Assembly: GCF_024502345.1 (NCBI RefSeq)
Contig: NZ_JALDNN010000001.1
DNA length: 64,000 nucleotides
Strand: one strand, 5' to 3'
From: Escherichia coli
Lineage (GTDB): Bacteria; Pseudomonadota; Gammaproteobacteria; Enterobacterales; Enterobacteriaceae
The first letter of the stretch is position 1. Every line of letters starts with the position of its first letter. The notes below the pieces were generated by a model. That model had not been told where the DNA came from, made no database searches, and saw only the letters and a list, made by a program, of their open reading frames with translations. Below are positions 1-64,000 of the stretch, in pieces. A program made the translations under genes and the position numbers.

Positions 1-278
1 GGTAAGGTTAATGCCAGCGTCAGCCAGGCCGGATCGGCCCCCATCGCTGCCAGATCGCTTAGGTTCACCGCCAGTGCTTTATAAGCCAGATCCGCAGGAT
101 CGATATCAGGGAGGAAGTGGTTGCCCGCCACCAGCGTATCAGTGCTGATCGCCAGGGTCTGTTTCTCGGGGATATTGAGAAGTGCGCAATCGTCGCCGAT
201 GCCCAGTTCGACATCAAGACGAGAACTTCTTACACGGTCAAAATAACGGGCAATCAGGGAGAACTCGCCACATGCCAT
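1..278 (-). CDS. thiL: thiamine-monophosphate kinase ThiL, N-terminal part (gene runs off the window start)
   Basis: Minus-strand ATG at 276-278 then [34 protein letters not shown]..., frame open through the positions translated (181-278); lies directly downstream of nusB as in the nusB-thiL operon. Confidence 0.8.
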
Positions 279-355
279 ACGTTATGCCTCAGCAGGTAAA
301 AAAGAAAAGGCCGGCGATCATGGAACGGTCTTCCGTGAATCTACCGGCCTGGATA

Positions 356-775
356 TTACTTTTTGTTAGGGCGAATCACAGGTGCTGCTTTATCGAGTAC
401 ACCGTTGACGAACTTATGGCTGTCTTCTGCGCCGAACGATTTCGCCAGTTCGATCGCTTCGTTAATGGCCACTTTGTATGGCACATCGCTACGTTTAGAC
501 AGTTCGTACAGCGCAATGCGCAGTACTGCTTTTTCTACCTGTCCCAGTTCTTCCAGCAGGCGGGACAGGTATGGCTTCATCAGTCCGTCGAGGTATGCGG
601 TATTAGTCGCCACCCCGGCCAGCAGCTCACGGAAGTACAGGACGTCAACGTCTTTTACATCCTGTTCAGCCAGGAACTGGTATTCAACATCAGCGATGTC
701 GTTCTGGGACAACTGCCAGGAGTAGAGCGCCTGGACGGCACACTCACGAGCGCGGCGACGAGCAGCAGGTTTCAC
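356..775 (-). CDS. nusB: transcription antitermination factor NusB
   Basis: Track ORF 139 aa, [20 protein letters not shown]...; length and sequence match NusB. Confidence 0.95.
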
Positions 776-794
776 GGATTTCCCCTTACTAATT

Positions 795-1265
795 TCAGGC
801 CTTGATGGCTTTCAATACATTAATCATTTCAAGCGCGGTCAGTGCAGCTTCTGCACCTTTGTTGCCAGCTTTGGTGCCAGCACGTTCGATCGCTTGTTCA
901 ATGCTTTCAGTGGTCAGAACCCCAAAAGCAACCGGAATTTCGCTGTCCTGGGCAACATGCGCCAGGCCGTTGCTTGCACCACCAGCGACATATTCAAAAT
1001 GGGCAGTGCCACCACGAATAACCGTACCCAGCGCAATCACCGCGTCGTATTTACCGGTTTTAGCCAGTGCACCCGCCGCCAGCGGCAGCTCATAGGCACC
1101 AGGCACCCAAACAACGGTAATGTTTTCATCTTTTACCTGACCGATACGTTTCAGTGCATCAATTGCACCTTCCAGCAGGCTGTCATTGATAAAGTTGTTG
1201 AAACGCGCGATGGTGATGGCGACGCGAGCGTCCGGGGTAGCAACGTTAGCTTCAATAATGTTCAT
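795..1265 (-). CDS. ribE: 6,7-dimethyl-8-ribityllumazine synthase
   Basis: Track ORF 795..1361; recognised N-terminus [24 protein letters not shown] gives a 156 aa product starting at 1265. Confidence 0.9.
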
Positions 1266-1353
1266 TTTCTTCCTTCGGGTTCGAGTATGGCCCCGCAGGG
1301 GGGCGGATTTTAGCATAATATTTCGTGCGCTGCTTCCCTTTCGAGCCGGGAGA

Positions 1354-2457
1354 TCATGCACCCACTAAATGCAGGCAAACATCCGGGCCTACATGACGTA
1401 TCTCTTTGAATTTAAATTGGGGGGCGTCAGCTAATTTCTCAAGCCCTGGCAGTGTGCATAATCCACGGGCGTCGCTGCCTAATAGTTTAGGTGCGATATA
1501 GACAATCAGCTCATCGACTAAACCCGCCTGCAGCAATGCGCCAGCGAGCGTTGGCCCCGCTTCCACCCAGATGCTGTTAATCTGCTGTTTACCCAGTTGC
1601 ATCATCAGTACAACCAGATCCAGATGACCTTTATGCTCTGGAATCAGCAAGGTACGCACCGTTTCCGGCCACTCACGAGAATCTTCCTGCGTACGCGCGA
1701 ACCAGGTTTCGCCGGGCTGCTGCACAATGTGATGTTCCGGCGTCACGCGATTTTGGCTATCAATCACAATACGTACCGGCTGGCGGAGATTTTGTTGCGG
1801 GTAGAGCGCCTGAGTTTGTTCATCCAGTTCAGACCAACGCACCGTTAAGGCAGGATCATCCGCCAGCACCGTAGCGCTGCTGGTTAAAATGGCATGACTT
1901 TGTGCGCGCAGTCGTTGTACGTCGCGCCGCGCCTGAGGCGAAGTGATCCACTGGCTTTCGCCGCTCGCCATCGCCGTGCGGCCATCAAGCGATGCGCCAA
2001 GTTTTAACTGAATATAAGGAAAGCCGGTGCGCATCCGCTTGAGAAAGCCTTTATTCAATTGCTCGGCTTCACTCATCATCAGCCCGTGGCTGACGTCAAT
2101 GCCAGCCTGTTGCAAACGGTAAAGTCCACGCCCAGCGACCTGCGGGTTCGGGTCCTGCATCGCAGCGACCACGCGCGCTACACCAGCGGCGATGAGTGCG
2201 TCACAGCACGGTGGCGTACGACCATGATGGCTACAGGGTTCGAGTGTGACATAGGCGGTCGCACCTTTGGCTTTTTCACCCGCCATTCGCAATGCGTGTA
2301 CTTCGGCATGTGGTTCACCCGCTCGTTGGTGGTAACCTTCACCGACAATTTCGCCATCTTTGACGATGACGCACCCGACATTCGGGTTGGGGTGGGTGGT
2401 AAAACGTCCTCGTTGCGCCAGCTTTAGCGCCCGCGCCATGTAATACTCGTCCTGCAC
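1354..2457 (-). CDS. ribD: bifunctional riboflavin biosynthesis deaminase/reductase RibD
   Basis: Track ORF 367 aa, [17 protein letters not shown]...; cytidine/dCMP deaminase zinc motif HAEVHAL...[11 protein letters not shown]. Confidence 0.95.
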
Positions 2458-2460
2458 GGC

Positions 2461-2946
<486 letters not shown>

Positions 2947-3060
2947 TTACCCTGAACTGACGATACAACAAAGGCGCAACGCTTTTGAGATAAAGGATCG
3001 ATGCTTTCGCTGCTTTTACCCTCTACCATTAGGCTAATTGCGACGAGAAAGGGACGACCT

Positions 3061-3600
3061 ATGAATATTAACGTTTTTCGACTGATCCTGCTGGGAAGCC
3101 TATTCAGCCTTAGCGCCTGTGTGCAGCAAAGTGAAGTGCGACAGATGAAACACAGCGTCAGCACGCTGAACCAGGAGATGACGCAACTCAATCAAGAAAC
3201 AGTCAAAATCACTCAGCAAAACAGGCTGAATGCAAAATCCAGCAGTGGGGTTTACCTTCTGCCTGGAGCGAAAACACCGGCAAGACTGGAAAGCCAGATC
3301 GGTACTTTACGTATGTCGCTGGTGAATATTACGCCTGATACAGATGGCACCACCCTGACACTACGTATTCAGGGTGAGTCGAATGATCCCTTGCCCGCAT
3401 TCAGCGGAACTGTTGAATATGGGCAAATTCAGGGAACAATAGACAACTTTCAGGAAATCAATGTACAGAATCAATTGATTAATGCCCCTGCCAGCGTCCT
3501 CGCCCCCAGCGATGTTGATATTCCGTTACAGTTAAAGGGGATTTCTGTGGATCAGTTAGGCTTTGTACGTATCCACGACATTCAACCTGTTATGCAGTAA
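3061..3600 (+). CDS. yajI: lipoprotein YajI
   Basis: Track ORF 3001..3600; lipoprotein signal peptide MNINVFRLILLGSLFSLSAC (lipobox LSAC) begins at 3061. Confidence 0.85.
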   Translation: MNINVFRLILLGSLFSLSACVQQSEVRQMKHSVSTLNQEMTQLNQETVKITQQNRLNAKSSSGVYLLPGAKTPARLESQIGTLRMSLVNITPDTDGTTLTLRIQGESNDPLPAFSGTVEYGQIQGTIDNFQEINVQNQLINAPASVLAPSDVDIPLQLKGISVDQLGFVRIHDIQPVMQ

Positions 3601-50696: not shown

Positions 50697-52237
50697 TGTC
50701 GCGCAATCTTCGTCATTGGGTGATTTCGCTGTTTATTGTGCTGGCCTGGGGAACCGGCTGGCTGATGCTGTGGACGCTCAGCTTTTATCTGACCAATAAC
50801 GGTCAACAGGCGGTGTTGTTTCTCCCGCAGGGAGTTTATCTCGCCCTTGTTATTTTGCTCTCTCGCCGCTACTGGCCTGCGTTGGTGCTCCCCCCTTTGC
50901 TGATGATGTTCTGGCTCCATAGTGAACAGCTATTGAACGGTTATCTCATGCTGGCAACGCCGGTTATTAGCCTGTTTCCTGTCCTCCTTGCGCAAAACTT
51001 CTGGCACCGTTTTCCACTTTACTGGCAGCGTCTGACGTTGCTGTTAGCCACTGTCACGGCAGCTTCATTGTTGAATACCGCCCTGCTCTCCCCTTTTATG
51101 TCAGGCCCAATAATGCTGCCGGGTTTGACCTCATTTACCGGCGGCGTATTACTGACGCCGTTTGTCTATCTTATCTTTGAGTTTCTGCGCCAGCAGCATC
51201 GCTACCAGCTCCTGGGACTCGATACGCATAATCCCCCCTTGCGTACCTCTTTAATCATCTGGTGTAGCCTGTTTTTTATTATTGGTATCGGCACTCAGAT
51301 GGTGCTGTCACCTGAAATTGAACGTCTGCTGTTGATCGTGGTCTTTTTGCCCAATGTGGTGATGGCGTGGAAATTTGGCTGGCAAGGTGGCGTACTCTCC
51401 GGGCTTTTGGGCAGCATGATGATCACCATCGCCCGCCAGATTGGCGTGGGCTTTAGTAACCTGGTGGAGCTGGAGATTTTCCTCGCGACCCAGGCCTTGC
51501 TGGGAATTGGCCTGGGCATTGCCATCAGTCGCCAGCAACATCTGGCGCTAAACCTGCACCATTACCGACAACGGCTGGAGGCCGAGCTGGCAGCGCGGCG
51601 GGCATTGGCGGAAAAGCTGATCCACACCGAGGAGGACACGCGAAAAAACCTGGCGCGAGAGCTGCACGACGAAATCGGTCAGAACATCACCGCCATTCAG
51701 ATCCAGTCGCAACTGGTGAAGCGGGCGCGTGATCCGGCGCAAATTCAATCCGCAGCCAGCCAAATCAATGAGCTCGCCCGCCGCATTCATCTCTCCACCC
51801 GCCAATTGCTGCGCCAGTTGCGGCCTCCCGCGCTTGATGAACTGACATTTCGCGAAGCGTTGCTGCATCTGATTAATGAATTTGCCTTTAGTGAACGCGG
51901 CATTCATTGCCAGTTTGCCTATCAACTGAACTCCACACCAGAAAACGAAACGGTGCGCTTTACCTTGTATCGGTTATTGCAGGAGTTGCTCAATAACATC
52001 TGTAAACACGCCGAAGCCAGCGAAGTGACGATTATCCTGCGCCAGCAGGGAGAGGTATTGCATCTGGAAGTCAGCGACAACGGTGTGGGGATCGCCAGCG
52101 GGAAAATGGCCGGATTTGGCATTCAGGGGATGCGTGAGCGCGTCAGCGCCCTGGGCGGCGACTTAACGCTCGAAAAACAGCACGGCACGCGGGTAATTGT
52201 TAACTTGCCCACATTTTTGCAACAAATCGCCGGATAA
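50696..52237 (+). CDS. UhpB-like sensor histidine kinase (MASE1-type membrane domain, HisKA_3, HATPase)
   Basis: Track ORF 513 aa; multiple N-terminal TM helices, H-box ELHDEIGQNITAI, ATP-binding region; start overlaps the stop of the upstream regulator. Confidence 0.85.
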   Translation: MSRNLRHWVISLFIVLAWGTGWLMLWTLSFYLTNNGQQAVLFLPQGVYLALVILLSRRYWPALVLPPLLMMFWLHSEQLLNGYLMLATPVISLFPVLLAQNFWHRFPLYWQRLTLLLATVTAASLLNTALLSPFMSGPIMLPGLTSFTGGVLLTPFVYLIFEFLRQQHRYQLLGLDTHNPPLRTSLIIWCSLFFIIGIGTQMVLSPEIERLLLIVVFLPNVVMAWKFGWQGGVLSGLLGSMMITIARQIGVGFSNLVELEIFLATQALLGIGLGIAISRQQHLALNLHHYRQRLEAELAARRALAEKLIHTEEDTRKNLARELHDEIGQNITAIQIQSQLVKRARDPAQIQSAASQINELARRIHLSTRQLLRQLRPPALDELTFREALLHLINEFAFSERGIHCQFAYQLNSTPENETVRFTLYRLLQELLNNICKHAEASEVTIILRQQGEVLHLEVSDNGVGIASGKMAGFGIQGMRERVSALGGDLTLEKQHGTRVIVNLPTFLQQIAG

Positions 52238-52309
52238 CCAGGAAAAAGTCTTAGGTATCCCGGATTTTCTCTCATCCCCTTTCACTTTCATTTTCATATA
52301 GTCAGCAAC

Positions 52310-53626
52310 ATGGAGACAACCATGCACGCGCGTTCAGCGAGAGAAATTAATCAATGCTACCGGACATTACGTCCGCGATTGCTGATGTGCATGATTATTG
52401 GCTACGCCGCATTTTATCTGACGCGAAAAAGCGTGAATTACGTCCTTCCGGCGCTACAAACCGACCTCGGACTGGATAAAGGCGACATTGGCCTGCTGGG
52501 TTCGCTGTTTTATCTCAGCTACGGATTGTCGAAATTTACCGCCGGACTGTGGCATGACAGCCATGGACAACGCGGTTTTATGGGCGTCGGCTTGTTCGCC
52601 ACCGGGTTATTGAACGTGGTGTTTGCCTTTGGCGAATCACTTACGCTTCTGCTTGTGGTCTGGACACTGAACGGTTTTTTTCAGGGCTGGGGATGGCCAC
52701 CGTGTGCCCGCTTGCTGACCCACTGGTACTCACGCAATGAGCGCGGTTTCTGGTGGGGCTGCTGGAATATGTCGATCAACATTGGCGGAGCGATTATTCC
52801 GCTGATTAGCGCCTTTGCCGCCCACTGGTGGGGCTGGCAGGCCGCGATGCTGACACCGGGGATAATCAGCATGGCATTAGGGATCTGGTTAACGCTACAA
52901 CTCAAAGGCACGCCCCAGGAAGAGGGATTACCGACAGTTGGTCACTGGCGTCACGATCCGCTGGAGTTACGTCAGGAACAACAAAGTCCGCCGATGGGGC
53001 TGTGGCAAATGTTGCGCACCACCATGCTGCAAAATCCGCTGATCTGGCTACTGGGCGTCTCTTATGTACTGGTTTATGTGATCCGGATTGCGCTTAACGA
53101 CTGGGGCAATATCTGGCTGACGGAAAGCCACGGTGTCAACCTGCTCAGCGCCAACGCCACGGTAATGCTGTTTGAAGTGGGCGGCTTACTCGGCGCGTTA
53201 TTTGCCGGATGGGGATCGGATTTGCTGTTTAGCGGGCAACGAGCGCCAATGATTTTGCTGTTCACGTTGGGGTTGATGGTGTCAGTCGCCGCACTGTGGC
53301 TGGCACCGGTTCATCACTACGCTCTGCTGGCAGTGTGCTTTTTTACCGTGGGCTTTTTCGTCTTTGGCCCACAAATGCTGATTGGACTTGCGGCGGTGGA
53401 GTGTGGGCACAAAGCTGCGGCGGGTTCAATCACCGGATTTCTCGGCCTGTTCGCTTACCTTGGCGCGGCGCTGGCAGGCTGGCCGCTGTCGCTGGTCATC
53501 GAACGCTACGGCTGGCCGGGAATGTTCAGTTTACTCTCGGTCGCCGCAGTACTTATGGGTTTACTGCTGATGCCGTTACTGATGGCGGGCATCACCACCA
53601 CTCACGCTCGAAGGATAAAACAATGA
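52310..53626 (+). CDS. UhpC-like MFS membrane protein (putative sugar-phosphate sensor)
   Basis: Track ORF 438 aa; organophosphate:Pi antiporter-type MFS motifs (YLTRKS, FFQGWGWPPCARLLTHWYS), similar in length and sequence to recalled UhpC. Confidence 0.8.
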   Translation: METTMHARSAREINQCYRTLRPRLLMCMIIGYAAFYLTRKSVNYVLPALQTDLGLDKGDIGLLGSLFYLSYGLSKFTAGLWHDSHGQRGFMGVGLFATGLLNVVFAFGESLTLLLVVWTLNGFFQGWGWPPCARLLTHWYSRNERGFWWGCWNMSINIGGAIIPLISAFAAHWWGWQAAMLTPGIISMALGIWLTLQLKGTPQEEGLPTVGHWRHDPLELRQEQQSPPMGLWQMLRTTMLQNPLIWLLGVSYVLVYVIRIALNDWGNIWLTESHGVNLLSANATVMLFEVGGLLGALFAGWGSDLLFSGQRAPMILLFTLGLMVSVAALWLAPVHHYALLAVCFFTVGFFVFGPQMLIGLAAVECGHKAAAGSITGFLGLFAYLGAALAGWPLSLVIERYGWPGMFSLLSVAAVLMGLLLMPLLMAGITTTHARRIKQ

Positions 53627-54654
53627 AAATGACCTTTACCTCTACTCTGATTGCTTCTGCCGTTGCGCTGGCGACTTTAACGGGTGCCGCGCAGGCAAAA
53701 GGCCGGCTGGTGGTCTATTGCAGCGCCACCAATGAAATGTGTGAGGCCGAAACCAAAGCGTTTGGCGAGAAATATGATGTAAAAACCTCGTTTATCCGCA
53801 ACGGTTCCGGAAGCACCCTGGCAAAAGTCGATGCTGAAAAGAAAAACCCCCAGGCTGACGTCTGGTACGGCGGCACTTTAGACCCGCAATCGCAGGCTGG
53901 CGAGATGGGCCTGCTACAGGCGTATAAATCCCCTAACCTTGAGCAGATCATGGAGAAATTCCGCGATCCGGCAAAAGTGAAAGGGAATCTGTCCTCTGCC
54001 GTTTATGTGGGGATCCTCGGTTTTGGCGTAAACACCGATCGTCTGAAAGAGAAAAACCTGCCGGTGCCGAAGTGCTGGAAAGATCTCACCAAACCGGAAT
54101 ATAAAGGCGAAATTCAAATTGCCGATCCGCAAAGTTCCGGTACTGCCTACACCGCCCTGGCTACTTTTGCGCAGCTGTGGGGGGAAGATCAGGCCTTTGA
54201 TTATCTAAAACAACTGAACGCCAACGTCTCTCAGTACACCAAATCAGGCATAGCCCCGGCACGTAACGCCGCCCGTGGCGAAACGGCGATTGGTATTGGC
54301 TTCCTGCATGACTACTCGCTGGAAAAAGAACAGGGCGCGCCGCTGGAGTTGATTTCCCCGTGTGAAGGTACGGGCTACGAAATTGGCGGCGTCAGCATTC
54401 TGAAAGGCGCGCGCAACCTCGACAACGCCAAACTGTTTGTGGACTGGGTATTATCAAAAGAAGCTCAGGAACTGGCGTGGAAGAAAGGGAAGTCTTATCA
54501 GATCCTGACCAATACCACCGCCGAAACGTCGCCAAATTCGCTGAAGCTCGACGACCTGAAATTAATCAACTACGACATGGATAAATATGGTTCCACGGAT
54601 GTTCGTAAGGCATTGATTAATAAATGGGTCAGCGAAGTGAAGATGGGTAAATAA
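53623..54654 (+). CDS. afuA: AfuA/FbpA-type periplasmic substrate-binding protein of an ABC importer
   Basis: In-frame ATG at 53623 within track ORF 53296..54654 gives 343 aa with signal peptide MKMTFTSTLIASAVALATLTGAAQA; ATG overlaps the stop of the UhpC-like gene (ATGA). Confidence 0.8.
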   Translation: MKMTFTSTLIASAVALATLTGAAQAKGRLVVYCSATNEMCEAETKAFGEKYDVKTSFIRNGSGSTLAKVDAEKKNPQADVWYGGTLDPQSQAGEMGLLQAYKSPNLEQIMEKFRDPAKVKGNLSSAVYVGILGFGVNTDRLKEKNLPVPKCWKDLTKPEYKGEIQIADPQSSGTAYTALATFAQLWGEDQAFDYLKQLNANVSQYTKSGIAPARNAARGETAIGIGFLHDYSLEKEQGAPLELISPCEGTGYEIGGVSILKGARNLDNAKLFVDWVLSKEAQELAWKKGKSYQILTNTTAETSPNSLKLDDLKLINYDMDKYGSTDVRKALINKWVSEVKMGK

Positions 54655-54722
54655 ACCCGCATTAGGCGTATTTGCCGGGTGCAGCACAAACGCCTGCCCC
54701 GGCCAACCATACCGGAACTACT

Positions 54723-56801
54723 ATGTCACAGACACTTGCACTCCATCCCGTGAAAAAGCGGGATGCGATTTTCCTTTGGGTTTTACTGGGCTGGCTGGCA
54801 TTTATACTGTTGCCGAGCTGGAGCCTCGATTATGGCCTGCTGGAGTCCACGAGTGATGAGATCCTCGAGGCTTATGGCTGGTCGCATTTTAATATCAGCT
54901 GGCTGTGGTATTTACTCCCGAGCCTGTTGCTGGTTCGCCCGTTTCGTGAGGCCACGCGCGAACAGCGTAGTCGTCATTATTTTGATGCCAGCTGGGCATT
55001 GCTCTGTATGGCGTTTATCGTCATCAGCGCCACCGTGGCTGGACGCGGTTTAGGCTACGCCGCCATCGTGCTGTTTGTTGAACTAGGCGCGATTATGACG
55101 CTGGCCTTAACCCGCCTCGAATGGCTGGGCGGCGACCGCTTCGTGATCGGCTCACTGATTGCGATTGTGGCGCTGATTGGCATTTTTATCGTCTGGCCGA
55201 GCATCGCCATTTTTATCCCGATGTTCACCAACGACGCGGGAGAGTTCGCCCCGCTGGCGTTTATGACCGTGCTCTCGCAGGCACATATTGTTCAGGTGAT
55301 CGTCAACTCTATCGTCTTGTCGATAGCGGTGGGGATAGGCTGTACTTTCTTCGGCCTGGTGCTGGCGATTTATACCACGCGCATCGCTAAACGCAGCGCC
55401 ATTATTGGTCGCATCTTTTCCATTTTGCCCATCGTTACGCCACCGTTTGTGGTCGGCTTAGGCGTGACGCTCATGATGGGGCGCTCCGGCTATGTTACGG
55501 AATTTATGGTGGAGTGGTTTGGGCTGACCAACACCAACTGGCTGTACGGTTTTACCGGGATCTGGCTGGCACAGGTTCTGGCATTCACGCCAATGGCATT
55601 TATGATCCTCGACGGGGCCATTAAAACCATTCATCCCTCGCTGGAAGAGGCCTCCTACACCCTGCGCGCCAGCCGCTGGCAAACCTTTAACGGCGTGTTT
55701 GTGCCGTTGTTGAAGCCCGCACTCGCCAATGCCTTTTTAATCGTCGTGGTACAGTCACTGGCTGATTTCAGTAACCCGCTGGTACTTGGCGGTAACTTCG
55801 ACGTACTGGCGACGCAAATTTACTTCTATATTACCGGCTCGCAGCTGGATTATCAGGCCGCCAGCACGCTTGGCGCTTTCCTGCTGCTGTTCTCGCTGCT
55901 GGTGTTCTGCATCCAGTATATGTGGATTGGTAAACGCTCTTACGTCACGGTTTCCGGCAAATCCTACCGTGGCGACGTCCAGCCGCTACCGGTCACCCTG
56001 GTGTGGAGCGTGGTCGCCATACTTGCGATATGGATTGCCTTTAACGCCCTGCTCTACGGCAGCATTTTCTACGGCAGCTTCACGGTGAACTGGGGCGTGG
56101 ACTACACCCTGACGCTGGATAACTTTATCAAGCTATTTGGTCAGGGAATGAGCGACGGCGCGTGGCCTTCACTGCTGGATACCCTGCTCTACGCCGGGAT
56201 TGCCGCTCCCATTACCGCTATCTTTGGCCTGCTCATCGCCTGGGTGGTGGTGCGTCAACAATTCAAAGGCAAAAAGACCATCGAGTTCACCACCATGCTG
56301 TGCTTTGCCGTACCGGGTACGGTGGCGGGCGTTTCGTATATTCTTGCCTTTAACAGCGCTCCGGTTTATCTCACCGGAACGGCGGCAATTGTGATTATCT
56401 CGATGGTGATGCGTAACGTTCCGGTGGGTATTCGCGCCGGGATTGCGGGTCTGGGGCAGATCGACAAATCGCTGGATGAAGCCTCACTCAGCCTGCGCGC
56501 GGGTTCCTTGCGAACCATAACCCACATTTTACTGCCGCTGCTGCGTCCGGCCATTCTCTCGGCCCTGATCTACAGCTTTGTGCGGGCCATCACGACGGTC
56601 AGCGCCATCGTCTTTCTCGTCACGCCGGACACCCGCGTGGCAACCGCCTACATTCTTAACCGCGTTGAAGACGGCGAATATGGCGTAGCCATCGCCTATG
56701 GTTCGATTCTGATCGTGGTGATGCTGGCGATTATTTTCCTCTTTGACTGGCTGATCGGAGAAGCTCGTATCTCCCGTTCTAAAGCCAAAAACAAGGCGTA
56801 A
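54723..56801 (+). CDS. afuB: AfuB/FbpB-type ABC permease with two fused transmembrane domains
   Basis: Track ORF 54672..56801 starts at a TTG; first ATG at 54723 (MSQTLALHP...) gives about 692 aa; duplicated ABC permease modules; the alternative start at 54672 cannot be excluded. Confidence 0.8.
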
Positions 56802-57859
56802 TGGAGCGCACTATGAGTCAGAAAAATTTTGTTGAACTGCGCAACGTCACTAAACGATTCGGCAGTAATACGGTTATCGACAATATCAATCTCACCATTC
56901 CACAAGGGCAAATGGTGACGCTGCTCGGTCCTTCCGGCTGTGGCAAAACCACCATTTTGCGTCTGGTTGCCGGGCTGGAAAAACCGAGCGAAGGGCAAAT
57001 TTTTATTGATGGCGAAGATGTCACGCATCGTTCCATTCAACAGCGCGATATCTGCATGGTGTTTCAGTCATACGCTCTGTTCCCGCATATGTCGCTGGGT
57101 GAAAACGTTGGCTACGGGCTGAAGATGCTTGGCGTCTCGCGTAGCGAAGTGAAACAGCGGGTGAAGGAGGCGCTGGCAATGGTGGATCTGGAAGGCTTCG
57201 AGGACCGCTATGTCGATCAGATTTCCGGTGGTCAGCAACAGCGTGTGGCACTGGCCCGCGCGTTGATCCTCAAGCCAAAGGTGCTGCTGTTTGATGAGCC
57301 GTTAAGTAACCTCGATGCCAACCTGCGCCGCAGTATGCGCGATAAGATCCGCGAGCTGCAAAAGCAGTTTAATATCACGTCGCTCTACGTCACTCACGAT
57401 CAAAGTGAAGCTTTCGCGGTGTCCGACACTGTGCTGGTGATGAATAAAGGTCACATCATGCAGATTGGCTCACCGCAGGATCTCTATCGTCAGCCAGCCT
57501 CCCGATTTATGGCAAGTTTTATGGGCGACGCCAACCTGTTCCCGGCGAACTTTAGCGAAGAGTATGTCGATATCTACGGTTATCGCCTGCCGCGCGCGGC
57601 GCATTTCCCGGCGCAAGGTAGCGGCACCGTCGGCGTTCGCCCGGAAGCCATCACCTTAAGCAATCACGGCGAAGAGAGTCAGCGTTGTGTTATTCGCCAT
57701 GTCGCCTACATGGGGCCGCAGTACGAAGTGACCGTAGAGTGGCATGGACAGGAGATTTTATTACAAGTAAACGCCACCCGTTTACAGCCCGATATTGGTG
57801 AGCACTATTACCTCGAAATCCATCCTTACGGGATGTTTGTTTTAGCGGATACGGCATAA
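56801..57859 (+). CDS. afuC: AfuC/FbpC-type ABC transporter ATP-binding protein
   Basis: Track ORF 352 aa; Walker [10 protein letters not shown], signature [14 protein letters not shown], Walker [11 protein letters not shown]-terminal TOBE-like regulatory domain; ATG overlaps the afuB stop (TAATG); a start at 56813 with a GGAG RBS is also possible. Confidence 0.85.
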
Positions 57860-57873
57860 AAATAGCACATAAA

Positions 57874-57900
57874 CGGTCCCCATCTGTCTTGAGGGACCGT
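57874..57900 (+). terminator. possible terminator hairpin after afuC
   Basis: GGTCCC-N12-GGGACC stem-loop 15 bp after the afuC stop; no strong T-tract. Confidence 0.4.
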
Positions 57901-57943
57901 TCACCTGGTTAGGCTTCGGACAACAATTATTCTCCAGTGTTAT

Positions 57944-57992
57944 ATACTATAGGGGGGTATGTATTGACATATAGCATACCCCCCTATAGTAT
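57944..57992 (+). promoter_or_regulatory. frmRAB promoter/operator: long inverted repeat with G6/C6 tracts
   Basis: ATACTATAGGGGGGTATG-(12 bp with TTGACA)-CATACCCCCCTATAGTAT, near-perfect 18-bp arms 27 bp upstream of the frmR ATG; matches the TACT-G6-N-AGTA type RcnR/FrmR operator. Confidence 0.75.
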
Positions 57993-58018
57993 ATTGCGTG
58001 CAGATGATGAGGTGCGAA

Positions 58019-58294
58019 ATGCCCAGTACTCCGGAAGAGAAGAAAAAGGTCCTTACTCGAGTTCGTCGTATTCGGGGGCAGATTGATGCTCTGGAACGGT
58101 CGCTGGAGGGTGATGCCGAATGCCGTGCCATACTCCAACAGATCGCTGCCGTTCGGGGCGCGGCTAACGGGCTGATGGCAGAAGTGCTTGAAAGCCATAT
58201 CCGGGAAACGTTTGACCGAAATGACTGCTACAGCCGCGAAGTCAGCCAATCCGTTGACGACACTATTGAACTGGTTCGAGCCTATCTTAAATAG
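58019..58294 (+). CDS. frmR: formaldehyde-responsive repressor FrmR (CsoR/RcnR family)
   Basis: Track ORF 57998..58294; recognised N-terminus [31 protein letters not shown] gives 91 aa. Confidence 0.9.
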
Positions 58295-58298
58295 CTGA

Positions 58299-59438
<1,140 letters not shown>

Positions 59439-59530
59439 TTTCCCGCTGGTTTACCCCGTCCACTTCAGACGGGGTTCTTAATACTCTCCCCGGGCAGCCG
59501 TCCGGGGGATTAACCGTGAGATAATGACTG

Positions 59531-60364
59531 ATGGAACTCATTGAAAAACATGCCAGCTTTGGCGGCTGGCAAAATGTGTATCGGCATTATTCCGCATCAC
59601 TGAAATGTGAAATGAATGTCGGCGTCTATCTCCCACCAAAAGCTGCAGGTGAAAAATTACCGGTGCTGTACTGGCTTTCGGGCCTGACCTGCAATGAGCA
59701 GAATTTCATTACTAAATCGGGGGTGCAGCGTTACGCGGCTGAGCACAACATTATTGTTGTTGCGCCGGATACCAGTCCGCGAGGCAGTCATGTCGCAGAT
59801 GCAGACCGTTACGATCTCGGGCAAGGTGCCGGGTTTTACCTGAACGCGACGCAAGCGCCGTGGAATGAACATTACAAAATGTATGACTATATCCGCAACG
59901 AGCTGCCGGATTTAGTGATGCATCATTTTCCGGCAACGGCCAAAAAGTCTATCTCTGGTCATTCTATGGGCGGGCTGGGCGCGCTGGTGCTGGCGTTACG
60001 TAACCCAGATGAATATGCCAGCGTCTCGGCGTTTTCGCCCATTGTCTCCCCATCGCAAGTACCGTGGGGACAGCAAGCCTTTGCTGCATATCTTGGTGAA
60101 AATAAAGATGCCTGGTTGTATTACGACCCGGTGAGTCTTATTTCACAAGGTCAACGCGTTGCGGAAATAATGGTTGATCAGGGGTTGAGTGATGATTTTT
60201 ACGCGGAACAGCTGCGGACTCCAAATCTTGAAAAGATCTGCCAGGAGATGAATATCAAGACGTTAATCCGTTATCACGAGGGTTACGACCACAGCTATTA
60301 TTTTGTCTCCAGTTTTATTGGCGAGCATATTGCCTACCACGCCAATAAACTGAATATGCGTTGA
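59531..60364 (+). CDS. frmB: S-formylglutathione hydrolase
   Basis: Track ORF 277 aa; esterase D family, GHSMGG serine-hydrolase motif. Confidence 0.95.
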   Translation: MELIEKHASFGGWQNVYRHYSASLKCEMNVGVYLPPKAAGEKLPVLYWLSGLTCNEQNFITKSGVQRYAAEHNIIVVAPDTSPRGSHVADADRYDLGQGAGFYLNATQAPWNEHYKMYDYIRNELPDLVMHHFPATAKKSISGHSMGGLGALVLALRNPDEYASVSAFSPIVSPSQVPWGQQAFAAYLGENKDAWLYYDPVSLISQGQRVAEIMVDQGLSDDFYAEQLRTPNLEKICQEMNIKTLIRYHEGYDHSYYFVSSFIGEHIAYHANKLNMR

Positions 60365-60377
60365 TAATAGTGCACGA

Positions 60378-60470
60378 CTGCCGGATGCGGCGTGAACGCC
60401 TTATCCGGCCTACACTTCGCCCATAAACCGTAGGCCTGATAAGACGCGTAAGCGTCGCATCAGGCATCTG
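60378..60470. repeat. REP pair
   Basis: CCGGATGCGGCGTGAACGCCTTATCCGG and GTAGGCCTGATAAGACGCGTAAGCGTCGCATCAGGC between convergent frmB and yaiL. Confidence 0.8.
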
Positions 60471-60488
60471 CGCACGACTTATCTATGT

Positions 60489-61028
60489 TTACCACATCAA
60501 ATCATCAGGCACTTTGAAGTCGGCATACGGGTCGTCTTCATCCTGCTCTTCGGCACTGAGCGCGCTGTGCAACACAATACTGCTGGCATCACGCTGAGCA
60601 ATTTTATCGGCAACGCTGGCGGGAATAATTGCGTATTCACCTTCGCTATTGTTATCGACCAACAAGCGGGCAATCGCCAGACGACCATTAATCAACTGCG
60701 CCTGTGTGAGCTTATCGACAAAAATCTTCTTAATCAGATTGCCGTCAGTGAAATTAAAACCAATATCGCCATTGGCAATGGTGATCCGGTTCATTTCAAT
60801 AAGCTGCTTCACCTGAGCTTTATATTCTTTCGCCAACGCCGCTTGTTTTTGCTGTTCGCTAAGCTGTTTATCACGCTCAAGCTGTGCCTTTTTATTTTCT
60901 TCTACCGCCGCCCGAGCTTCACGCGCCTGAACGCGCGATTTTTTCGCCGTTCTCTCGACCTTCGCCGCTTTTTTGCTGGTGACTAATCCTGCTTTGAGCA
61001 ACTGCTCTTGTAAGGTAAGTTTTGCCAT
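60489..61028 (-). CDS. yaiL: DUF2058-family protein YaiL
   Basis: Track ORF 60489..61145; recognised N-terminus MAKLTLQEQLLKAGLVTSKKAAKVER gives 179 aa. Confidence 0.8.
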   Translation of the reverse strand: MAKLTLQEQLLKAGLVTSKKAAKVERTAKKSRVQAREARAAVEENKKAQLERDKQLSEQQKQAALAKEYKAQVKQLIEMNRITIANGDIGFNFTDGNLIKKIFVDKLTQAQLINGRLAIARLLVDNNSEGEYAIIPASVADKIAQRDASSIVLHSALSAEEQDEDDPYADFKVPDDLMW

Positions 61029-61129
61029 CTTTGTTTCCAAACCCGCTGAATAATTTTTAGCGAGTATACCTGTAAACGCCGTGGGTGTATTGGGGGCAAG
61101 TCCCTTTCGCCCCTGCTTAATAAGGCGCG

Positions 61130-62341
61130 TCAGGCATCGGCACACGGCTGCATTCTTGATCTCCGACTCATCAAAATAAACACCGCCAACCCAGCAACAA
61201 GAATACCCGGTGCAGAAGCGGCCATTACGCCGACCGTGCCAGTGCCTAATGCCAGCATTTTCCCGGCCAGTAACGGACCGCTCATAGCCCCCAGACGCCC
61301 TACCGCCACGGCTGTTCCCACACCTGTTGCGCGGATCTGCGAACTGTAAAACAACGGTGCCAGGGCATATAAAACGCTTTGCCCACCTGTCGCAAACAAC
61401 CCCGCGACAAATCCCGCCAGCAACATACCGTTAAATGACGACACCGTTCCAAGCGCCAGCAGCGAAGCTAACATGCCGCTATAAATCAGTCGCGACATGG
61501 TTACTGGACGCAGCTTATCCATCAATGCGCCCAACATTAACGTCCCGCTTGCCGCCCCCATTTGCAGGGCAAACATCACCCCTGCCGCCTGCGATGGCTG
61601 GAATCCTTGCTCCACCAAAAGTAGCGGTAGCCAGTTGATCAACATATAAACCACCAGCAGAGTGAAGAAATAACACAACCACAGCAGCAGCGTCGCGGTT
61701 GCCGTTTCTGGCGCAAATAAGGCACGCAGTGGTGGCGCAGCCTGTTTTTCGCCAGCGAAAACCGCTGACTCCGGCAGCCAGCGCATTAATAGCGGCACCA
61801 GAATCAACGGCACCACACCACCTACCCAAAACACCGTTTGCCATGCTAAGTTTGCCCCCGCGAAACCCAGTGTCGCCGCCAGCGCCGCGCCAATGGGAAC
61901 ACCGCAATACATCAGGCTCACTGCCGTCCCACGAAAACGTGGACCCGCGGCTTCAGATGTCAGGGCGATAAGATTCGGCAACGCCGCCCCCAGCCCGACA
62001 CCGGTCATCAGCCGCGCAAAGACCAGTGAGGGGAAATCCCAGGCAATCGCCGTTGCCAGTGAGAACAAACCAAACAGCGCAACTGAGCCAATCAAAATAC
62101 GCTTACGACCATAACGGTCTGCCAGCATCCCGCCAACCAACGCGCCGGGTAGCAAACCGAGTATTCCGGCGCTAAATATCCAGCCCATTTGCATTTTATC
62201 GAGTGCGAAAGCCTGGGCGATGCCACCCGCCGCAATGCCAGCCGCCTGAAGATCCAGCCCTTCCATCAGAGCGACCAAAAAACAAAGCCCGATGGTCAGC
62301 ATCAGGCGGGATGAAGATGATGAAGGGGTACGAGTCGACAT
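61130..62341 (-). CDS. mhpT: 3-(3-hydroxyphenyl)propionate MFS transporter MhpT
   Basis: Track ORF 61130..62386; recognised N-terminus MSTRTPSSSSSRLMLTIGLCFLVALMEGLDLQ gives 403 aa; 12-TM MFS. Confidence 0.85.
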   Translation of the reverse strand: MSTRTPSSSSSRLMLTIGLCFLVALMEGLDLQAAGIAAGGIAQAFALDKMQMGWIFSAGILGLLPGALVGGMLADRYGRKRILIGSVALFGLFSLATAIAWDFPSLVFARLMTGVGLGAALPNLIALTSEAAGPRFRGTAVSLMYCGVPIGAALAATLGFAGANLAWQTVFWVGGVVPLILVPLLMRWLPESAVFAGEKQAAPPLRALFAPETATATLLLWLCYFFTLLVVYMLINWLPLLLVEQGFQPSQAAGVMFALQMGAASGTLMLGALMDKLRPVTMSRLIYSGMLASLLALGTVSSFNGMLLAGFVAGLFATGGQSVLYALAPLFYSSQIRATGVGTAVAVGRLGAMSGPLLAGKMLALGTGTVGVMAASAPGILVAGLAVFILMSRRSRMQPCADA

Positions 62342-62432
62342 AAGATGAACCTCATTGCGAGTGCAGGTGAATCGCGACTGATACATTGCCAGCCGCGTAA
62401 TCAGAACTATTTAATGACTGCCTACGGGCAAA

Positions 62433-62780
62433 ATGTAGGCCGGATAAGGCGTTCACGCCGCATCCGGCAGTCGTGTGCAGATGCCTGATGCGACGCTTGC
62501 GCGTCTTATCAGGCCTACAAATTCCCGCGCCATCCGTAGGCCGGACAAGACGTTTGCGCCGCATCTGGCAGTCGTGCGCAGATGCCTGATGCGACGCTAA
62601 CGCGTCTTATCAGGCCTACAAATTCCCGCGCCATCCGTAGGCCGGATAAGGCGTTCACGCCGCATCCGGCAGTCGTGCGCAGATGCCTGATGCGACGCTA
62701 ACGCGTCTTATCAGGCCTACAAATTCTCGCGCCATCCGTAGGCCGGATAAGGCGTTCACGCCGCATCCGGCAGTCGTGCT
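62433..62780. repeat. BIME: array of about seven alternating REP units (about 3.5 tandem doublets of roughly 100 bp)
   Basis: Repeated GTAGGCCGGATAAGGCGTTCACGCCGCATCCGGCAGTCGTG and GATGCCTGATGCGACGCT(A/T)(A/G)CGCGTCTTATCAGGCCTAC units with near-identical copies between mhpT and mhpE. Confidence 0.85.
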
Positions 62781-62819
62781 GGGATGGGCATACAAAATGC
62801 ACGTTCTCGGCAGTCAATA

Positions 62820-63833
62820 TTATTTGTTGTTGCGCAGATCCAGCGCCACGTCGACGATCATATCCTCCTGGCCGCCAACCATCCGGCGTTTGCCCAGCTC
62901 AACGAGAATATCCACCGCGCTTAAGCCATAACGCGCCGCCGCCGTTTCACAGTGACGCAGGAAGCTGGAGTAAACACCAGCATATCCCAGCGCCAGCGTT
63001 TCGCGATCGACTCGTACCGGTCGATCCTGCAACGGACGCACCAGGTCGTCGGCGGCATCCATTAACGCATAGAGATCGGCCCCATGCTGCCAACCCAGTT
63101 TATCCACGGCGGCAATAAATACTTCCAGCGGCGCGTTACCTGCGCCCGCGCCCATTCCCGCGAGGCTGGCGTCGATTCGGTCGCAGCCCTCTTCCACCGC
63201 CGCGATAGAGTTCGCCACGCCAAGACTCAGGTTATGGTGAGCGTGCATGCCAGTTTGCGTTTCTGGTTTCAGCACTGCTTTCAGGGCGCGGAAACGGTCA
63301 CGGATATCGCTCATGTTCATCGCACCGCCAGAATCCACCACATAAATACAGGTCGCACCGTAGCCTTCCATCAGCTTTGCCTGCTTGGCGAGATTCTCCG
63401 GCGTGGTCATATGGCTCATCATCAGAAAACCAACGGTGTCCATTCCGAGTTCGCGGGCATACTGAATATGCTGGGCGGAAACATCAGCTTCGGTACAGTG
63501 CGTAGCCACACGAACCACCCGCGCGCCAGCCTGCCAGGCATTTTTCAGATCGTGAATAGTGCCGATTCCTGGCAGCAACAACGTCGCGATTTTGGCGTGC
63601 TTCACCACATCCGCCGCTGCTTCAATCCATTCAAGGTCGCTATGTGCGCCGAAACCATAGTTAAAGCTGGACCCCTGCAAACCGTCGCCATGGGCCACTT
63701 CAATCGAATCCACGCGGGCATCGTCCAGTGCTTTGGCAATCTGCCGAACATTTTCCAGCGAATACTGATGACGAATGGCGTGCATACCGTCACGCAACGT
63801 GACGTCCGAGATATAAAGTTTTTTACCGTTCAT
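62820..63833 (-). CDS. mhpE: 4-hydroxy-2-oxovalerate aldolase
   Basis: Track ORF 337 aa, [26 protein letters not shown]... Confidence 0.95.
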
Positions 63834-64000
63834 GCCGCTTCTCCTGCCTTGCGCGCCAGTGACTGGGCCATTTTTTCTGCTGTCGCCAGCGCACTGGAAG
63901 TCATAATGTCGAGGTTGCCCGCATAGGCAGGCAGATAATGCGCTGCGCCTTCGACTTCCAGCCAGACCGCCGTTTTCAGCCCGGAGAACTGACCCACGCC
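63830..64000 (-). CDS. mhpF: acetaldehyde dehydrogenase (acetylating) MhpF, C-terminal part (gene runs off the window end)
   Basis: Minus-strand frame open to the window end, finishing ..LARKAGEAA with a stop overlapping the mhpE ATG; typical mhpF-mhpE coupling. Confidence 0.75.

What the first reader, a model, noticed from the sequence alone, without database searches (positions are those of the whole stretch)
62433..62780. Unusually large BIME (about 7 REP units) between mhpT and mhpE
Roughly 3.5 tandem copies of a 100-bp REP doublet with near-identical units fill the convergent mhpT/mhpE gap. Arrays this long are recombination and replication-slippage prone and bind gyrase/IHF in E. coli. 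Copy number here is probably strain-variable and may be misassembled in short-read data.
Basis: partly seen in the sequence, partly recalled or inferred. Interest (0 to 1): 0.3.

Follow-up and report, generated by a model that had tools for sequence, protein, structure and literature searches.

The report
Known REP array between mhpE and mhpT
This is an ordinary, already catalogued E. coli repeat array (a BIME-2, the counterpart of K-12's REP31): seven small palindromes between two same-direction genes of an aromatic-acid pathway, in a number that differs between strains.

Summary
The repeat is real. Tandem Repeats Finder reports 62435-62779, period 101 bp, 3.4 copies, 94% matches. It resolves into 4 Y and 3 Z2 REP palindromes in alternating orientation, joined by 13-nt and 17-nt linkers. 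That is a canonical BIME-2.

It lies between mhpE (62820-63833) and mhpT (61130-62341).

The K-12 counterpart is EcoCyc REP31. It has 9 REPs, one doublet more than here, and is the third-largest of 263 BIME-2 intervals in K-12.

Across 5,426 complete E. coli genomes the locus has 1, 3, 5, 7 or 9 REPs, always in 101-bp steps:
- 1 REP: about 48%
- 3, 5 or 7 REPs together: 20% (7 REPs about 3%)
- 9 REPs: about 21%
- locus absent or rearranged: about 12%

Published Topo-seq data show three gyrase cleavage sites in the K-12 array. There is no IHF consensus in the gap; IHF sites belong to BIME-1.

By analogy with REP325, the likely local role is a 3'-decay barrier for mhpE mRNA and partial attenuation of read-through into mhpT. 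This was not tested.

Nothing here is new, so interest is low.

The parts
62435..62779 (.). BIME-2 array: (Y, 13-nt head-to-head linker, Z2, 17-nt tail-to-tail linker) x3, then a terminal Y and a partial head-side linker (GTCGTGC)
   Evidence: TRF period 101, 3.4 copies, 94% matches; direct-repeat family; unit map
62435..62469 (.). Y REP 1 (GTAGGCCGGATAAGGCGTTCACGCCGCATCCGGCA), nearest mhpT
   Evidence: Exact match to the Y core; RNA hairpin -21.3 kcal/mol on the transcribed strand
62483..62518 (.). Z2 REP 1 (loop variant CTTGCG)
   Evidence: 2 mismatches to the Z2 core; hairpin -20.5 kcal/mol
62536..62570 (.). Y REP 2, degenerate (5 of 35 substitutions that weaken the stem and are not compensatory)
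   Evidence: Unit map; hairpin only -11.4 kcal/mol; 4 of the 10 differences from strain F9792 fall here
62584..62619 (.). Z2 REP 2
   Evidence: Exact match to the Z2 core; hairpin -20.5 kcal/mol
62637..62671 (.). Y REP 3
   Evidence: Exact match; hairpin -21.3 kcal/mol
62685..62720 (.). Z2 REP 3
   Evidence: Exact match; hairpin -20.5 kcal/mol
62738..62772 (.). Y REP 4, nearest mhpE; the first REP met by a transcript reading out of mhpE
   Evidence: Exact match; lies 47 nt downstream of the mhpE stop codon
62820..63833 (-). mhpE (4-hydroxy-2-oxovalerate aldolase), the upstream gene
   Evidence: ORF; NCBIfam TIGR03217 equivalog, 600.6 bits against a cut-off of 286; RefSeq annotation of near-identical loci
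61130..62341 (-). mhpT (3-(3-hydroxyphenyl)propionate transporter), the downstream gene
   Evidence: ORF; ATG at 62341; NCBIfam NF008586 equivalog, 625 bits against a cut-off of 410
62342..62434 (-). 93-nt unique leader between the array and the mhpT ATG; no recognisable promoter or MhpR operator
   Evidence: No sigma-70-like site; no 7-mer shared with the mhpR-mhpA control region and no palindrome
62780..62819 (-). 40-nt unique spacer between the mhpE stop codon and the array
   Evidence: Sequence; distances

Best explanation
The feature is a canonical BIME-2, the class of E. coli repeat arrays built from alternating, inverted Y and Z2 REP palindromes with short linkers. It sits in the 478-nt gap between the co-directional genes mhpE and mhpT. 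It is the strain-specific allele (7 REPs) of the element catalogued in K-12 as REP31 (9 REPs).

Shown here:
- Composition, position and the orientation of the flanking genes.
- Stable hairpins on the transcribed strand.
- Copy number varies between strains in whole 101-bp doublets.

Taken from published K-12 data: gyrase cleaves the orthologous array, mainly in Y units.

Inferred by analogy with REP325 and other BIMEs between tandem genes: when the mhp operon is transcribed from the mhpA promoter, the REP hairpins block 3'-to-5' decay of the mhpABCDFE message. They also let only part of the transcription continue into mhpT, so the array sets the enzyme-to-transporter expression ratio.

Also inferred: copy number changes by unequal recombination or replication slippage between the 101-bp direct repeats, or by RayT (TnpA-REP) cleavage and joining.
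For: Anatomy:
- TRF array.
- Seven REPs, 4 Y and 3 Z2, with constant 13-nt and 17-nt linkers.
- Each Y-linker-Z2 unit hits Rfam RF02564 above its gathering score (88, 85 and 69 bits against 59.5). That model was built from the Y+Z2 units of REP325 (PMC4550694).

The BIME-2 definition (z2 + y, short S linker, multiple tandem copies, strain-variable number) comes from PMC3333891.

Gene order and strand. REP31 is listed as 'Tandem mhpE mhpT', 374931-375366.

Alleles:
- Spans differ by multiples of 101 bp.
- Fetched loci have 1, 3, 5, 7 or 9 REPs, with Y at both ends.
- 2,203 against 1,084 genomes at 80% coverage or more puts 1,119 genomes in the 9-REP class.

Gyrase: K-12 W3110 interval 374155-374590 has 3 Cfx cleavage sites. 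Two lie in Y REPs, 202 bp apart. Poisson P(3 or more) = 0.011.

RNA:
- Read-through transcript MFE -249.8 kcal/mol, z = -11.3.
- Six of the seven REP hairpins are -20.5 to -21.3 kcal/mol.

Functional analogy: REP325, a Y/Z2 array between the tandem genes yjdM and yjdN, raises upstream mRNA and lowers downstream expression 8- to 10-fold. REP-containing tandem pairs show upstream-biased expression genome-wide (bioRxiv 10.64898/2026.03.23.713779).
Against: - No expression data for mhpE or mhpT were examined, so the stabiliser/attenuator role at this locus rests on analogy only.
- The array has the opposite polarity to REP325 relative to transcription: the stronger Rfam hits are on the plus strand, antisense to mhp.
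- The only rut site reported near REP31 in the Harris supplement is on the antisense strand. Sense-strand Rho loading is therefore not documented.
- The first REP is 47 nt from the mhpE stop codon. That is beyond the 15-nt limit reported for REP-mediated translational down-regulation (cited).
- Gyrase signal at the K-12 array is weak: 3 sites with ciprofloxacin only, against 35 at tldD-yhdP.
- About 48% of genomes manage with a single Y REP, so a long array is not required.
Confidence: 0.9

Rival explanations
1. Assembly artefact: the true locus has a single doublet or a single REP, and the 3.4 copies arose by mis-assembly of short reads.
For: The units are 91-94% identical and the array (345 bp) is longer than a typical short read. 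The window's strain is not in the complete-genome collection: best flank identity is 99.4% and the best array match is 98.5%. The exact sequence therefore has no independent confirmation.
Against: At least 30 complete RefSeq genomes carry an allele of exactly this length (601/601 span). Strain F9792 has the same 7-REP layout, differing by 10 substitutions in 478 nt and no indels. Alleles form a clean series of 1, 3, 5, 7 and 9 REPs, as expected of biology. The units carry distinguishing substitutions (degenerate Y2, different Z2 loops), which helps an assembler place them.
Confidence: 0.04
2. The array is primarily a gene for naRNA4-like nucleoid-associated small RNAs that work with HU to condense the chromosome.
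For: Three units score above the Rfam RF02564 gathering threshold on the plus strand, and one on the minus strand. Qian et al. 2015 reported HU-naRNA4-dependent DNA condensation for REP325.
Against: The best-scoring orientation is antisense to the only evident transcription, which is mhpE to mhpT on the minus strand. No promoter-like site lies in the gap. The 2026 re-examination found that deleting or overexpressing REP325 does not change nucleoid volume and that REP-REP contacts are absent. The Rfam match reflects shared Y+Z2 sequence common to all BIME-2, not a specific gene.
Confidence: 0.03
3. The array is functionally neutral selfish DNA: a REPIN/RayT-driven or slippage-driven expansion with no effect on mhp expression or topology.
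For: Half of the genomes carry only one Y REP at this site and about 12% lack the locus. One unit in the window is decaying, with non-compensatory substitutions and a hairpin of -11.4 kcal/mol. Copy number at a given BIME-2 locus is generally variable (PMC3333891).
Against: Six of the seven hairpins are intact at about -21 kcal/mol. Arrays of this type measurably alter the expression of flanking genes where tested (REP325). Gyrase cleaves the K-12 array in vivo. Any transcript leaving mhpE must pass seven stable hairpins, so some effect on RNA fate is physically hard to avoid.
Confidence: 0.25

Closest known systems
REP31 of E. coli K-12 MG1655 (EcoCyc; 374931-375366, between mhpE and mhpT)
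   Same: Orthologous locus with the same flanking genes in the same order, the same Y/Z2 units, the same linkers and the same 101-bp period.
   Different: K-12 has 4.4 copies (9 REPs, gap 577 bp) against 3.4 copies (7 REPs, gap 478 bp) here. The substitutions within units differ, and K-12's mhpT-proximal Y carries an indel.
REP325 / naRNA1-6 (BIME-2 between yjdM and yjdN, K-12)
   Same: A Y+Z2 tandem array between two co-directional genes. Units here match the Rfam naRNA4 model at 69-88 bits. It is the best-studied functional analogue, acting as stabiliser of the upstream mRNA and partly Rho-dependent attenuator of the downstream gene.
   Different: REP325 has 12 hairpins and a different spacer between units. 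Its polarity relative to transcription is opposite to that of this array. No expression data exist for the mhp array.
BIME-1 (RIB/RIP elements; y + z1 with long L linker)
   Same: Also built from a Y REP plus an inverted Z-type REP in an extragenic position.
   Different: BIME-1 occurs as a single copy, uses z1, and has a long L linker that often carries an IHF site. Here the linker is 13 nt, the partner is Z2, copies are tandem, and no IHF consensus is present. In Topo-seq, BIME-1 intervals are not enriched for gyrase sites (3 observed against 9 expected).
Strongly cleaved gyrase BIME-2s (tldD-yhdP, eco-mqo, sucB-sucC)
   Same: The same element class. The K-12 mhp array also has cleavage sites, preferentially in Y units.
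   Different: Far weaker signal: 3 Cfx sites and none under the other three conditions, against 35/13/3/10 at tldD-yhdP and 11/7/2/5 at eco-mqo.

Membership tests
BIME-2 | Built from Y and Z2 REP palindromes in alternating (inverted) orientation | tested here: met
   4 Y and 3 Z2 alternate, with GTAG/CTAC feet facing tail-to-tail and heads facing head-to-head. The Y+Z2 assignment is backed by Rfam RF02564 hits, a model built from Y+Z2 units. Telling Z2 from the shorter Z1 rests partly on my recollection of the published consensus sequences.
BIME-2 | Short head-to-head linker (S) rather than the long L linker with an IHF site | tested here: met
   The linker is 13 nt (GTCGTG[C/T]GCAGAT) in all three units. 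No WATCARNNNNTTR site lies in 62342-62819. Definition from PMC3333891.
BIME-2 | Occurs as multiple tandem copies that are well conserved within a locus | tested here: met
   3.4 copies, 94% matches, no indels.
BIME-2 | Extragenic location | tested here: met
   Lies wholly between the mhpE stop codon (62820) and the mhpT start (62341).
BIME-2 | [quoted passage not shown] | tested here: met
   Alleles of 1, 3, 5, 7 and 9 REPs among 5,426 complete genomes.
BIME-2 | Cleaved or bound by DNA gyrase in vivo | not testable with these tools
   Not testable for this strain. The K-12 W3110 orthologue has 3 Cfx cleavage sites (PMC6379681 DS3), two of them in Y units.
BIME-1 (IHF-binding RIB/RIP) | y + z1 separated by a long L linker that carries an IHF consensus; single copy | tested here: not met
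   Short 13-nt linker, Z2-type partner, tandem copies, and no IHF consensus in the gap.
naRNA4 (Rfam RF02564) | Sequence and structure score above the family's gathering threshold | tested here: met
   Plus strand: 88, 85 and 69.4 bits against 59.5. Minus strand: 62.7, 58.6 and 50.4 bits.
naRNA4 (Rfam RF02564) | Expressed as a discrete HU-associated RNA in the modelled orientation | not testable with these tools
   The flanking genes are transcribed on the minus strand, opposite to the best hits, and no promoter-like site lies in the gap. The proposed function is itself disputed.
REPIN / RayT-associated REP population | REP doublets of the type recognised by a single-copy rayT (tnpA-REP) gene in the same genome | not tested
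   rayT is not expected in this window; in K-12 (from my own recollection) it lies about 118 kb from mhp. K-12 REP31a-g was predicted to be RAYT-associated by RAREFAN (bioRxiv 10.1101/2024.07.17.603846).
CRISPR array | Constant repeats separated by unique, variable spacers | tested here: not met
   The sequences between palindromes are themselves constant (13-nt and 17-nt linkers repeated), and the palindromes alternate between two types.

The most novel reading that the evidence does not exclude
The number of REP doublets between mhpE and mhpT (1 to 9 REPs across E. coli) acts as a heritable, stepwise dial on mhpT. No promoter or MhpR operator is recognisable upstream of mhpT, so its induction may depend on read-through across the array. 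Each added 101-bp doublet would then lower transporter expression relative to the catabolic enzymes. This would make the locus a natural allelic series for testing the dose-response of REP-mediated attenuation.
Probability: 0.2. Interest if true: 0.35.

Novelty: already known. Interest (0 to 1): 0.1.

Why it matters
It matters little as a discovery. The element class (BIME-2), this specific locus (REP31 in K-12), its gyrase cleavage and the general variability of BIME-2 copy number between strains are all published.

Two things are of practical use:
- A corrected annotation: the genes are co-directional, the element is BIME-2 rather than an IHF-binding BIME-1, and it is smaller than the K-12 allele.
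- A locus-specific allele spectrum (1, 3, 5, 7 or 9 REPs) across 5,426 complete genomes. This could serve as a natural series for testing how the number of REP hairpins tunes read-through and mRNA stability.

Tried and rejected
1. IHF binding. No WATCARNNNNTTR match lies anywhere in the gap; the 8 matches in the window are all elsewhere. Rejected.
2. Convergent-gene terminator role. Both genes are on the minus strand. Rejected.
3. An mhpT promoter or intrinsic terminator in the gap. The consensus scan found no sigma-70-like site. The only terminator-like hairpin is inside mhpT (62307-62287), not in the gap.
4. An MhpR operator upstream of mhpT. The mhpR-mhpA region holds the palindrome GGTGCACCTGGTGCACA. 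The 93-nt mhpT leader shares no 7-mer with that region and has no palindrome. Rejected.
5. REP-mediated ribosome stalling at the mhpE stop codon. The first REP is 47 nt away, beyond the reported 15-nt limit. Unlikely.
6. Literature on an mhpT promoter or on REPs in the mhp cluster. The searchable library has no paper linking mhpE or mhpT to REPs. The two papers I recalled (Xu 2013, Ferrandez 1997) are not held.
7. Locating REP31 from the mobilome preprint's supplement gave nothing. It was resolved from the Harris supplement instead.
8. Scans of genome contigs or metagenomes for outgroup species were not run. The cost was not justified for an already known element.

Full report
OBSERVATION

Tandem Repeats Finder reports a single array at 62435-62779: period 101 bp, 3.4 copies, 94% matches, no indels, score 627. 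It is the only tandem array scoring 80 or more in the whole 64-kb window. The repeat finder independently gives three 150-nt copies spaced 101 bp apart at 91-92% identity.

Reading the sequence and mapping units gives seven palindromes:
- Y REPs at 62435-62469, 62536-62570, 62637-62671 and 62738-62772.
- Z2 REPs at 62483-62518, 62584-62619 and 62685-62720.

Within each doublet the two REPs face head-to-head across a 13-nt linker (GTCGTG[C/T]GCAGAT). Between doublets they face tail-to-tail across a 17-nt linker (AAATTC[C/T]CGCGCCATCC). Dinucleotide-preserving shuffles of the window give zero matches to either REP core.

SURROUNDINGS

The flanking ORFs are 62820-63833 and 61130-62341, both on the minus strand.
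- The first matches the NCBIfam equivalog for 4-hydroxy-2-oxovalerate aldolase MhpE (600.6 bits, cut-off 286).
- The second matches the equivalog for the 3-(3-hydroxyphenyl)propionate transporter MhpT (625 bits, cut-off 410).
- RefSeq annotations of near-identical loci agree. In K-12 both genes are on one strand, in the order mhpF-mhpE-mhpT-yaiL.

The genes are therefore co-directional, with mhpE upstream of mhpT.

The gap is 478 nt. From the mhpE stop codon to the first REP is 47 nt. From the last REP to the mhpT ATG is 93 nt. A consensus scan finds no sigma-70-like promoter and no intrinsic terminator inside the gap.

WHAT IT IS

Ton-Hoang et al. (PMC3333891) define BIME-2 as z2 + y REPs in multiple tandem copies with a short S linker and s/l/r flanking motifs. 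BIME-1 is a single y + z1 pair with a long L linker that frequently carries an IHF site.

The array meets every BIME-2 criterion I could test and fails the BIME-1 criteria. In particular, no WATCARNNNNTTR match lies in the gap.

Each Y-linker-Z2 unit also hits Rfam RF02564 (naRNA4) above its gathering score on the plus strand: 88, 85 and 69 bits against 59.5. That model was built from the 77-nt Y+Z2 units of REP325 (PMC4550694). The hit confirms unit type rather than identifying a gene.

THE LOCUS IS ALREADY CATALOGUED

K-12 MG1655 carries the same array with 4.4 copies (9 REPs) in a 577-bp gap.
- The supplement of Harris et al. (bioRxiv 10.64898/2026.03.23.713779) lists it as 'REP31, Tandem, 375366-374931, mhpE, mhpT'.
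- Sutormin et al. (PMC6379681, table DS3) list it as a BIME-2 interval of 435 bp at 374155-374590 in W3110 coordinates.

In that table it is the third-largest of 263 BIME-2 intervals, after 654 bp (eco-mqo) and 582 bp. A 345-bp array would rank about sixth. The array is therefore large for a BIME-2, but smaller than the reference allele at its own locus.

STRAIN VARIATION

I searched the locus plus flanks against 5,426 complete E. coli genomes and listed records at even steps down the ranking. Locus spans differ by multiples of 101 bp. Fetched representatives have these counts, always odd and with Y at both ends:

| REPs | Example strains |
|---|---|
| 1 | S51, ECOCN22 |
| 3 | CUVET21-424 |
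| 5 | ATCC 8739 |
| 7 | F9792 |
| 9 | MG1655, E203449, DA33133 |

For MG1655, DA33133 and CUVET21-424 the substitution-only map missed one variant Y. The totals given follow from the gap lengths, the TRF copy number and, for MG1655, the indel-tolerant map.

Frequencies come from two sources: coverage counts, and two 60-row samples taken at even steps down the rankings.
- 2,203 genomes cover at least 80% of the K-12-allele query, which takes in the 3-, 5-, 7- and 9-REP classes.
- 1,084 genomes cover at least 80% of the window-allele query, which takes in the 3-, 5- and 7-REP classes.
- The 9-REP class is therefore 1,119 genomes, or 20.6%.
- The 3-, 5- and 7-REP classes together are 20.0%. From the samples they split roughly 10%, 7-8% and 3%.
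- The samples put the 1-REP class at about 48%.
- The locus is absent or rearranged in about 12%.

No allele longer than 9 REPs appeared in the samples. At least 30 complete genomes have an allele of exactly the window's length.

The window's own strain is not in the collection. The best 10.4-kb flank identity is 99.4%. The closest 7-REP array (F9792) differs by 10 substitutions in 478 nt, 7 of them inside the array, with no indels.

An assembly expansion is unlikely, though the reads for this window cannot be checked.

PROTEIN BINDING

In K-12 W3110 the orthologous array holds three ciprofloxacin-trapped gyrase cleavage sites and none under the other three conditions. With 4,635 sites in 4.52 Mb the expectation is 0.45, so Poisson P(3 or more) = 0.011.

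Whatever coordinate offset between 767 and 778 is used, two of the three sites fall at equivalent positions in Y units 202 bp apart, and one falls in a Z2. This matches the paper's statement that Y is cleaved more often than z2.

The signal is weak beside tldD-yhdP, which has 35 sites.

IHF is not expected. BIME-1 intervals are the IHF class, and no consensus is present here.

RNA

The read-through transcript (minus strand, 479 nt) folds at -249.8 kcal/mol against -179.7 +/- 6.2 for shuffles, z = -11.3. Taken one at a time, six REPs form hairpins of -20.5 to -21.3 kcal/mol on the transcribed strand. The degenerate Y2 reaches only -11.4, and its five substitutions are not compensatory.

LIKELY MECHANISM (INFERRED)

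The best-studied analogue is REP325, a Y/Z2 array between the tandem genes yjdM and yjdN.
- Harris et al. report that it does not compact the nucleoid.
- It stabilises the upstream mRNA and reduces downstream expression 8- to 10-fold, with partial Rho dependence.
- It yields a ladder of hairpin-terminated RNAs.
- Genome-wide, REP-containing tandem gene pairs show upstream-biased expression.

Applied here, transcripts from the mhpA promoter that leave mhpE would be protected from 3' exonucleases by the REP hairpins. Only a fraction would continue into mhpT.

I found no promoter-like site. The 93-nt mhpT leader also has no counterpart of the mhpR-mhpA palindrome GGTGCACCTGGTGCACA. Read-through may therefore be a real source of mhpT expression.

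None of this was measured. Three points weigh against a strong claim:
- The array's polarity relative to transcription is opposite to that of REP325.
- The only rut site listed near REP31 is antisense (375401-375492, 35 bp away).
- Half of all genomes carry a single REP.

Copy-number change in exact 101-bp steps fits two routes: unequal recombination or slippage between direct repeats, and the RayT cleavage-and-joining models of Ton-Hoang et al.. The data here cannot tell them apart.

RIVALS

- Assembly artefact, about 4%. It is contradicted by identical-length alleles in independent complete genomes.
- A dedicated naRNA4-like sRNA gene, about 3%. The orientation is wrong, there is no promoter, and the proposed function is disputed.
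- Neutral selfish DNA, about 25%. It cannot be excluded, but six intact hairpins in a transcribed gap and in vivo gyrase cleavage argue for at least passive effects.

VERDICT

It is wrong on gene orientation and on IHF. The element is a textbook BIME-2 and the counterpart of K-12's REP31. Novelty: already known. Interest: low, 0.1.

Noticed in passing
window 60375-60480: A second, single BIME-2 doublet (Y, a 16-nt tail-to-tail linker ACTTCGCCCATAAACC, Z2, then the S motif). It lies between the 3' end of the ORF at 59531-60364 (+) and the ORF at 60489-61145 (-), which covers the yaiL position, so this gap really is convergent. Close relatives such as 88-3493 and F9792 span 10,502 bp against 10,401 bp here, i.e. 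one extra 101-bp unit somewhere in 52000-62400. K-12 has a 186-bp BIME-2 interval about 2 kb from REP31. I did not confirm that the extra unit lies at this BIME.
   Followed up: partly
L008 1490-1510 (E. coli IH5, NZ_CP168269.1): In this strain mhpT is replaced by Rhs/DUF4329/YbbC fragments. The junction falls exactly at the foot of a Y REP (...GCAAGCCAC|TAGGCCGGATAAGG), leaving 3 REPs next to mhpE. A rearrangement breakpoint at the GTAG end of a REP could reflect REP-targeted recombination, or chance.
   Followed up: partly
window 62536-62570: The second Y unit carries five non-compensatory substitutions, and its hairpin is -11.4 against -21.3 kcal/mol. Two of them (GGACAAGACG) recur in the terminal Y of the 5-REP allele of ATCC 8739 (L003). 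This suggests unit shuffling by unequal exchange or gene conversion between alleles.
   Followed up: partly
window 52000-64000: The window's strain is not among the 5,426 complete RefSeq E. coli genomes. The best identity is 99.4% over 10.4 kb of flank and 98.5-98.7% over the array region. The closest relatives are O169:H41 ETEC-type strains (F9792, F8111-1SC3, 2014EL-1345-2) and 88-3493.
   Followed up: partly
window 62342-62434 (K-12 375401-375492, antisense strand): The Harris et al. supplement lists a NusG-dependent rut (Rho-loading) site antisense to the mhpT 5' UTR, 35 bp from REP31. An antisense transcript running out of mhpT towards the array may therefore be Rho-terminated at its edge. 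That antisense strand is also the one on which the Rfam naRNA4 hits are strongest.
   Followed up: no
K-12 REP31 and REP32 (orthologue of window 62435-62779; REP32's position not confirmed): A mobilome-sequencing preprint (10.1101/2024.07.17.603846) reports REP31a-g and REP32a-d among only eight REP regions whose DNA was protected from exonuclease, with raised coverage under SDS or copper stress. No circular junction reads were found. The cause is unexplained; the authors suggest protein (RayT) binding.
   Followed up: no
E. coli genome collection: About 12% of sampled records have no mhpE-mhpT junction at all (for example ATCC 25922, UPEC132, SCU-306). Long arrays (5-9 REPs) were seen mostly in strains with small genomes (4.5-4.9 Mb) such as K-12, ATCC 8739 and ETEC lineages. 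O157:H7 strains carry a single Y REP and O26:H11 carries 3 REPs. This suggests a phylogenetically structured expansion.
   Followed up: partly
window 62345-62931: Several mechanical ORFs of 41-82 aa run through the array on both strands. At least one RefSeq genome annotates a 'hypothetical protein' over the region (H96). These look like artefacts of GC-rich repeats rather than genes.
   Followed up: no
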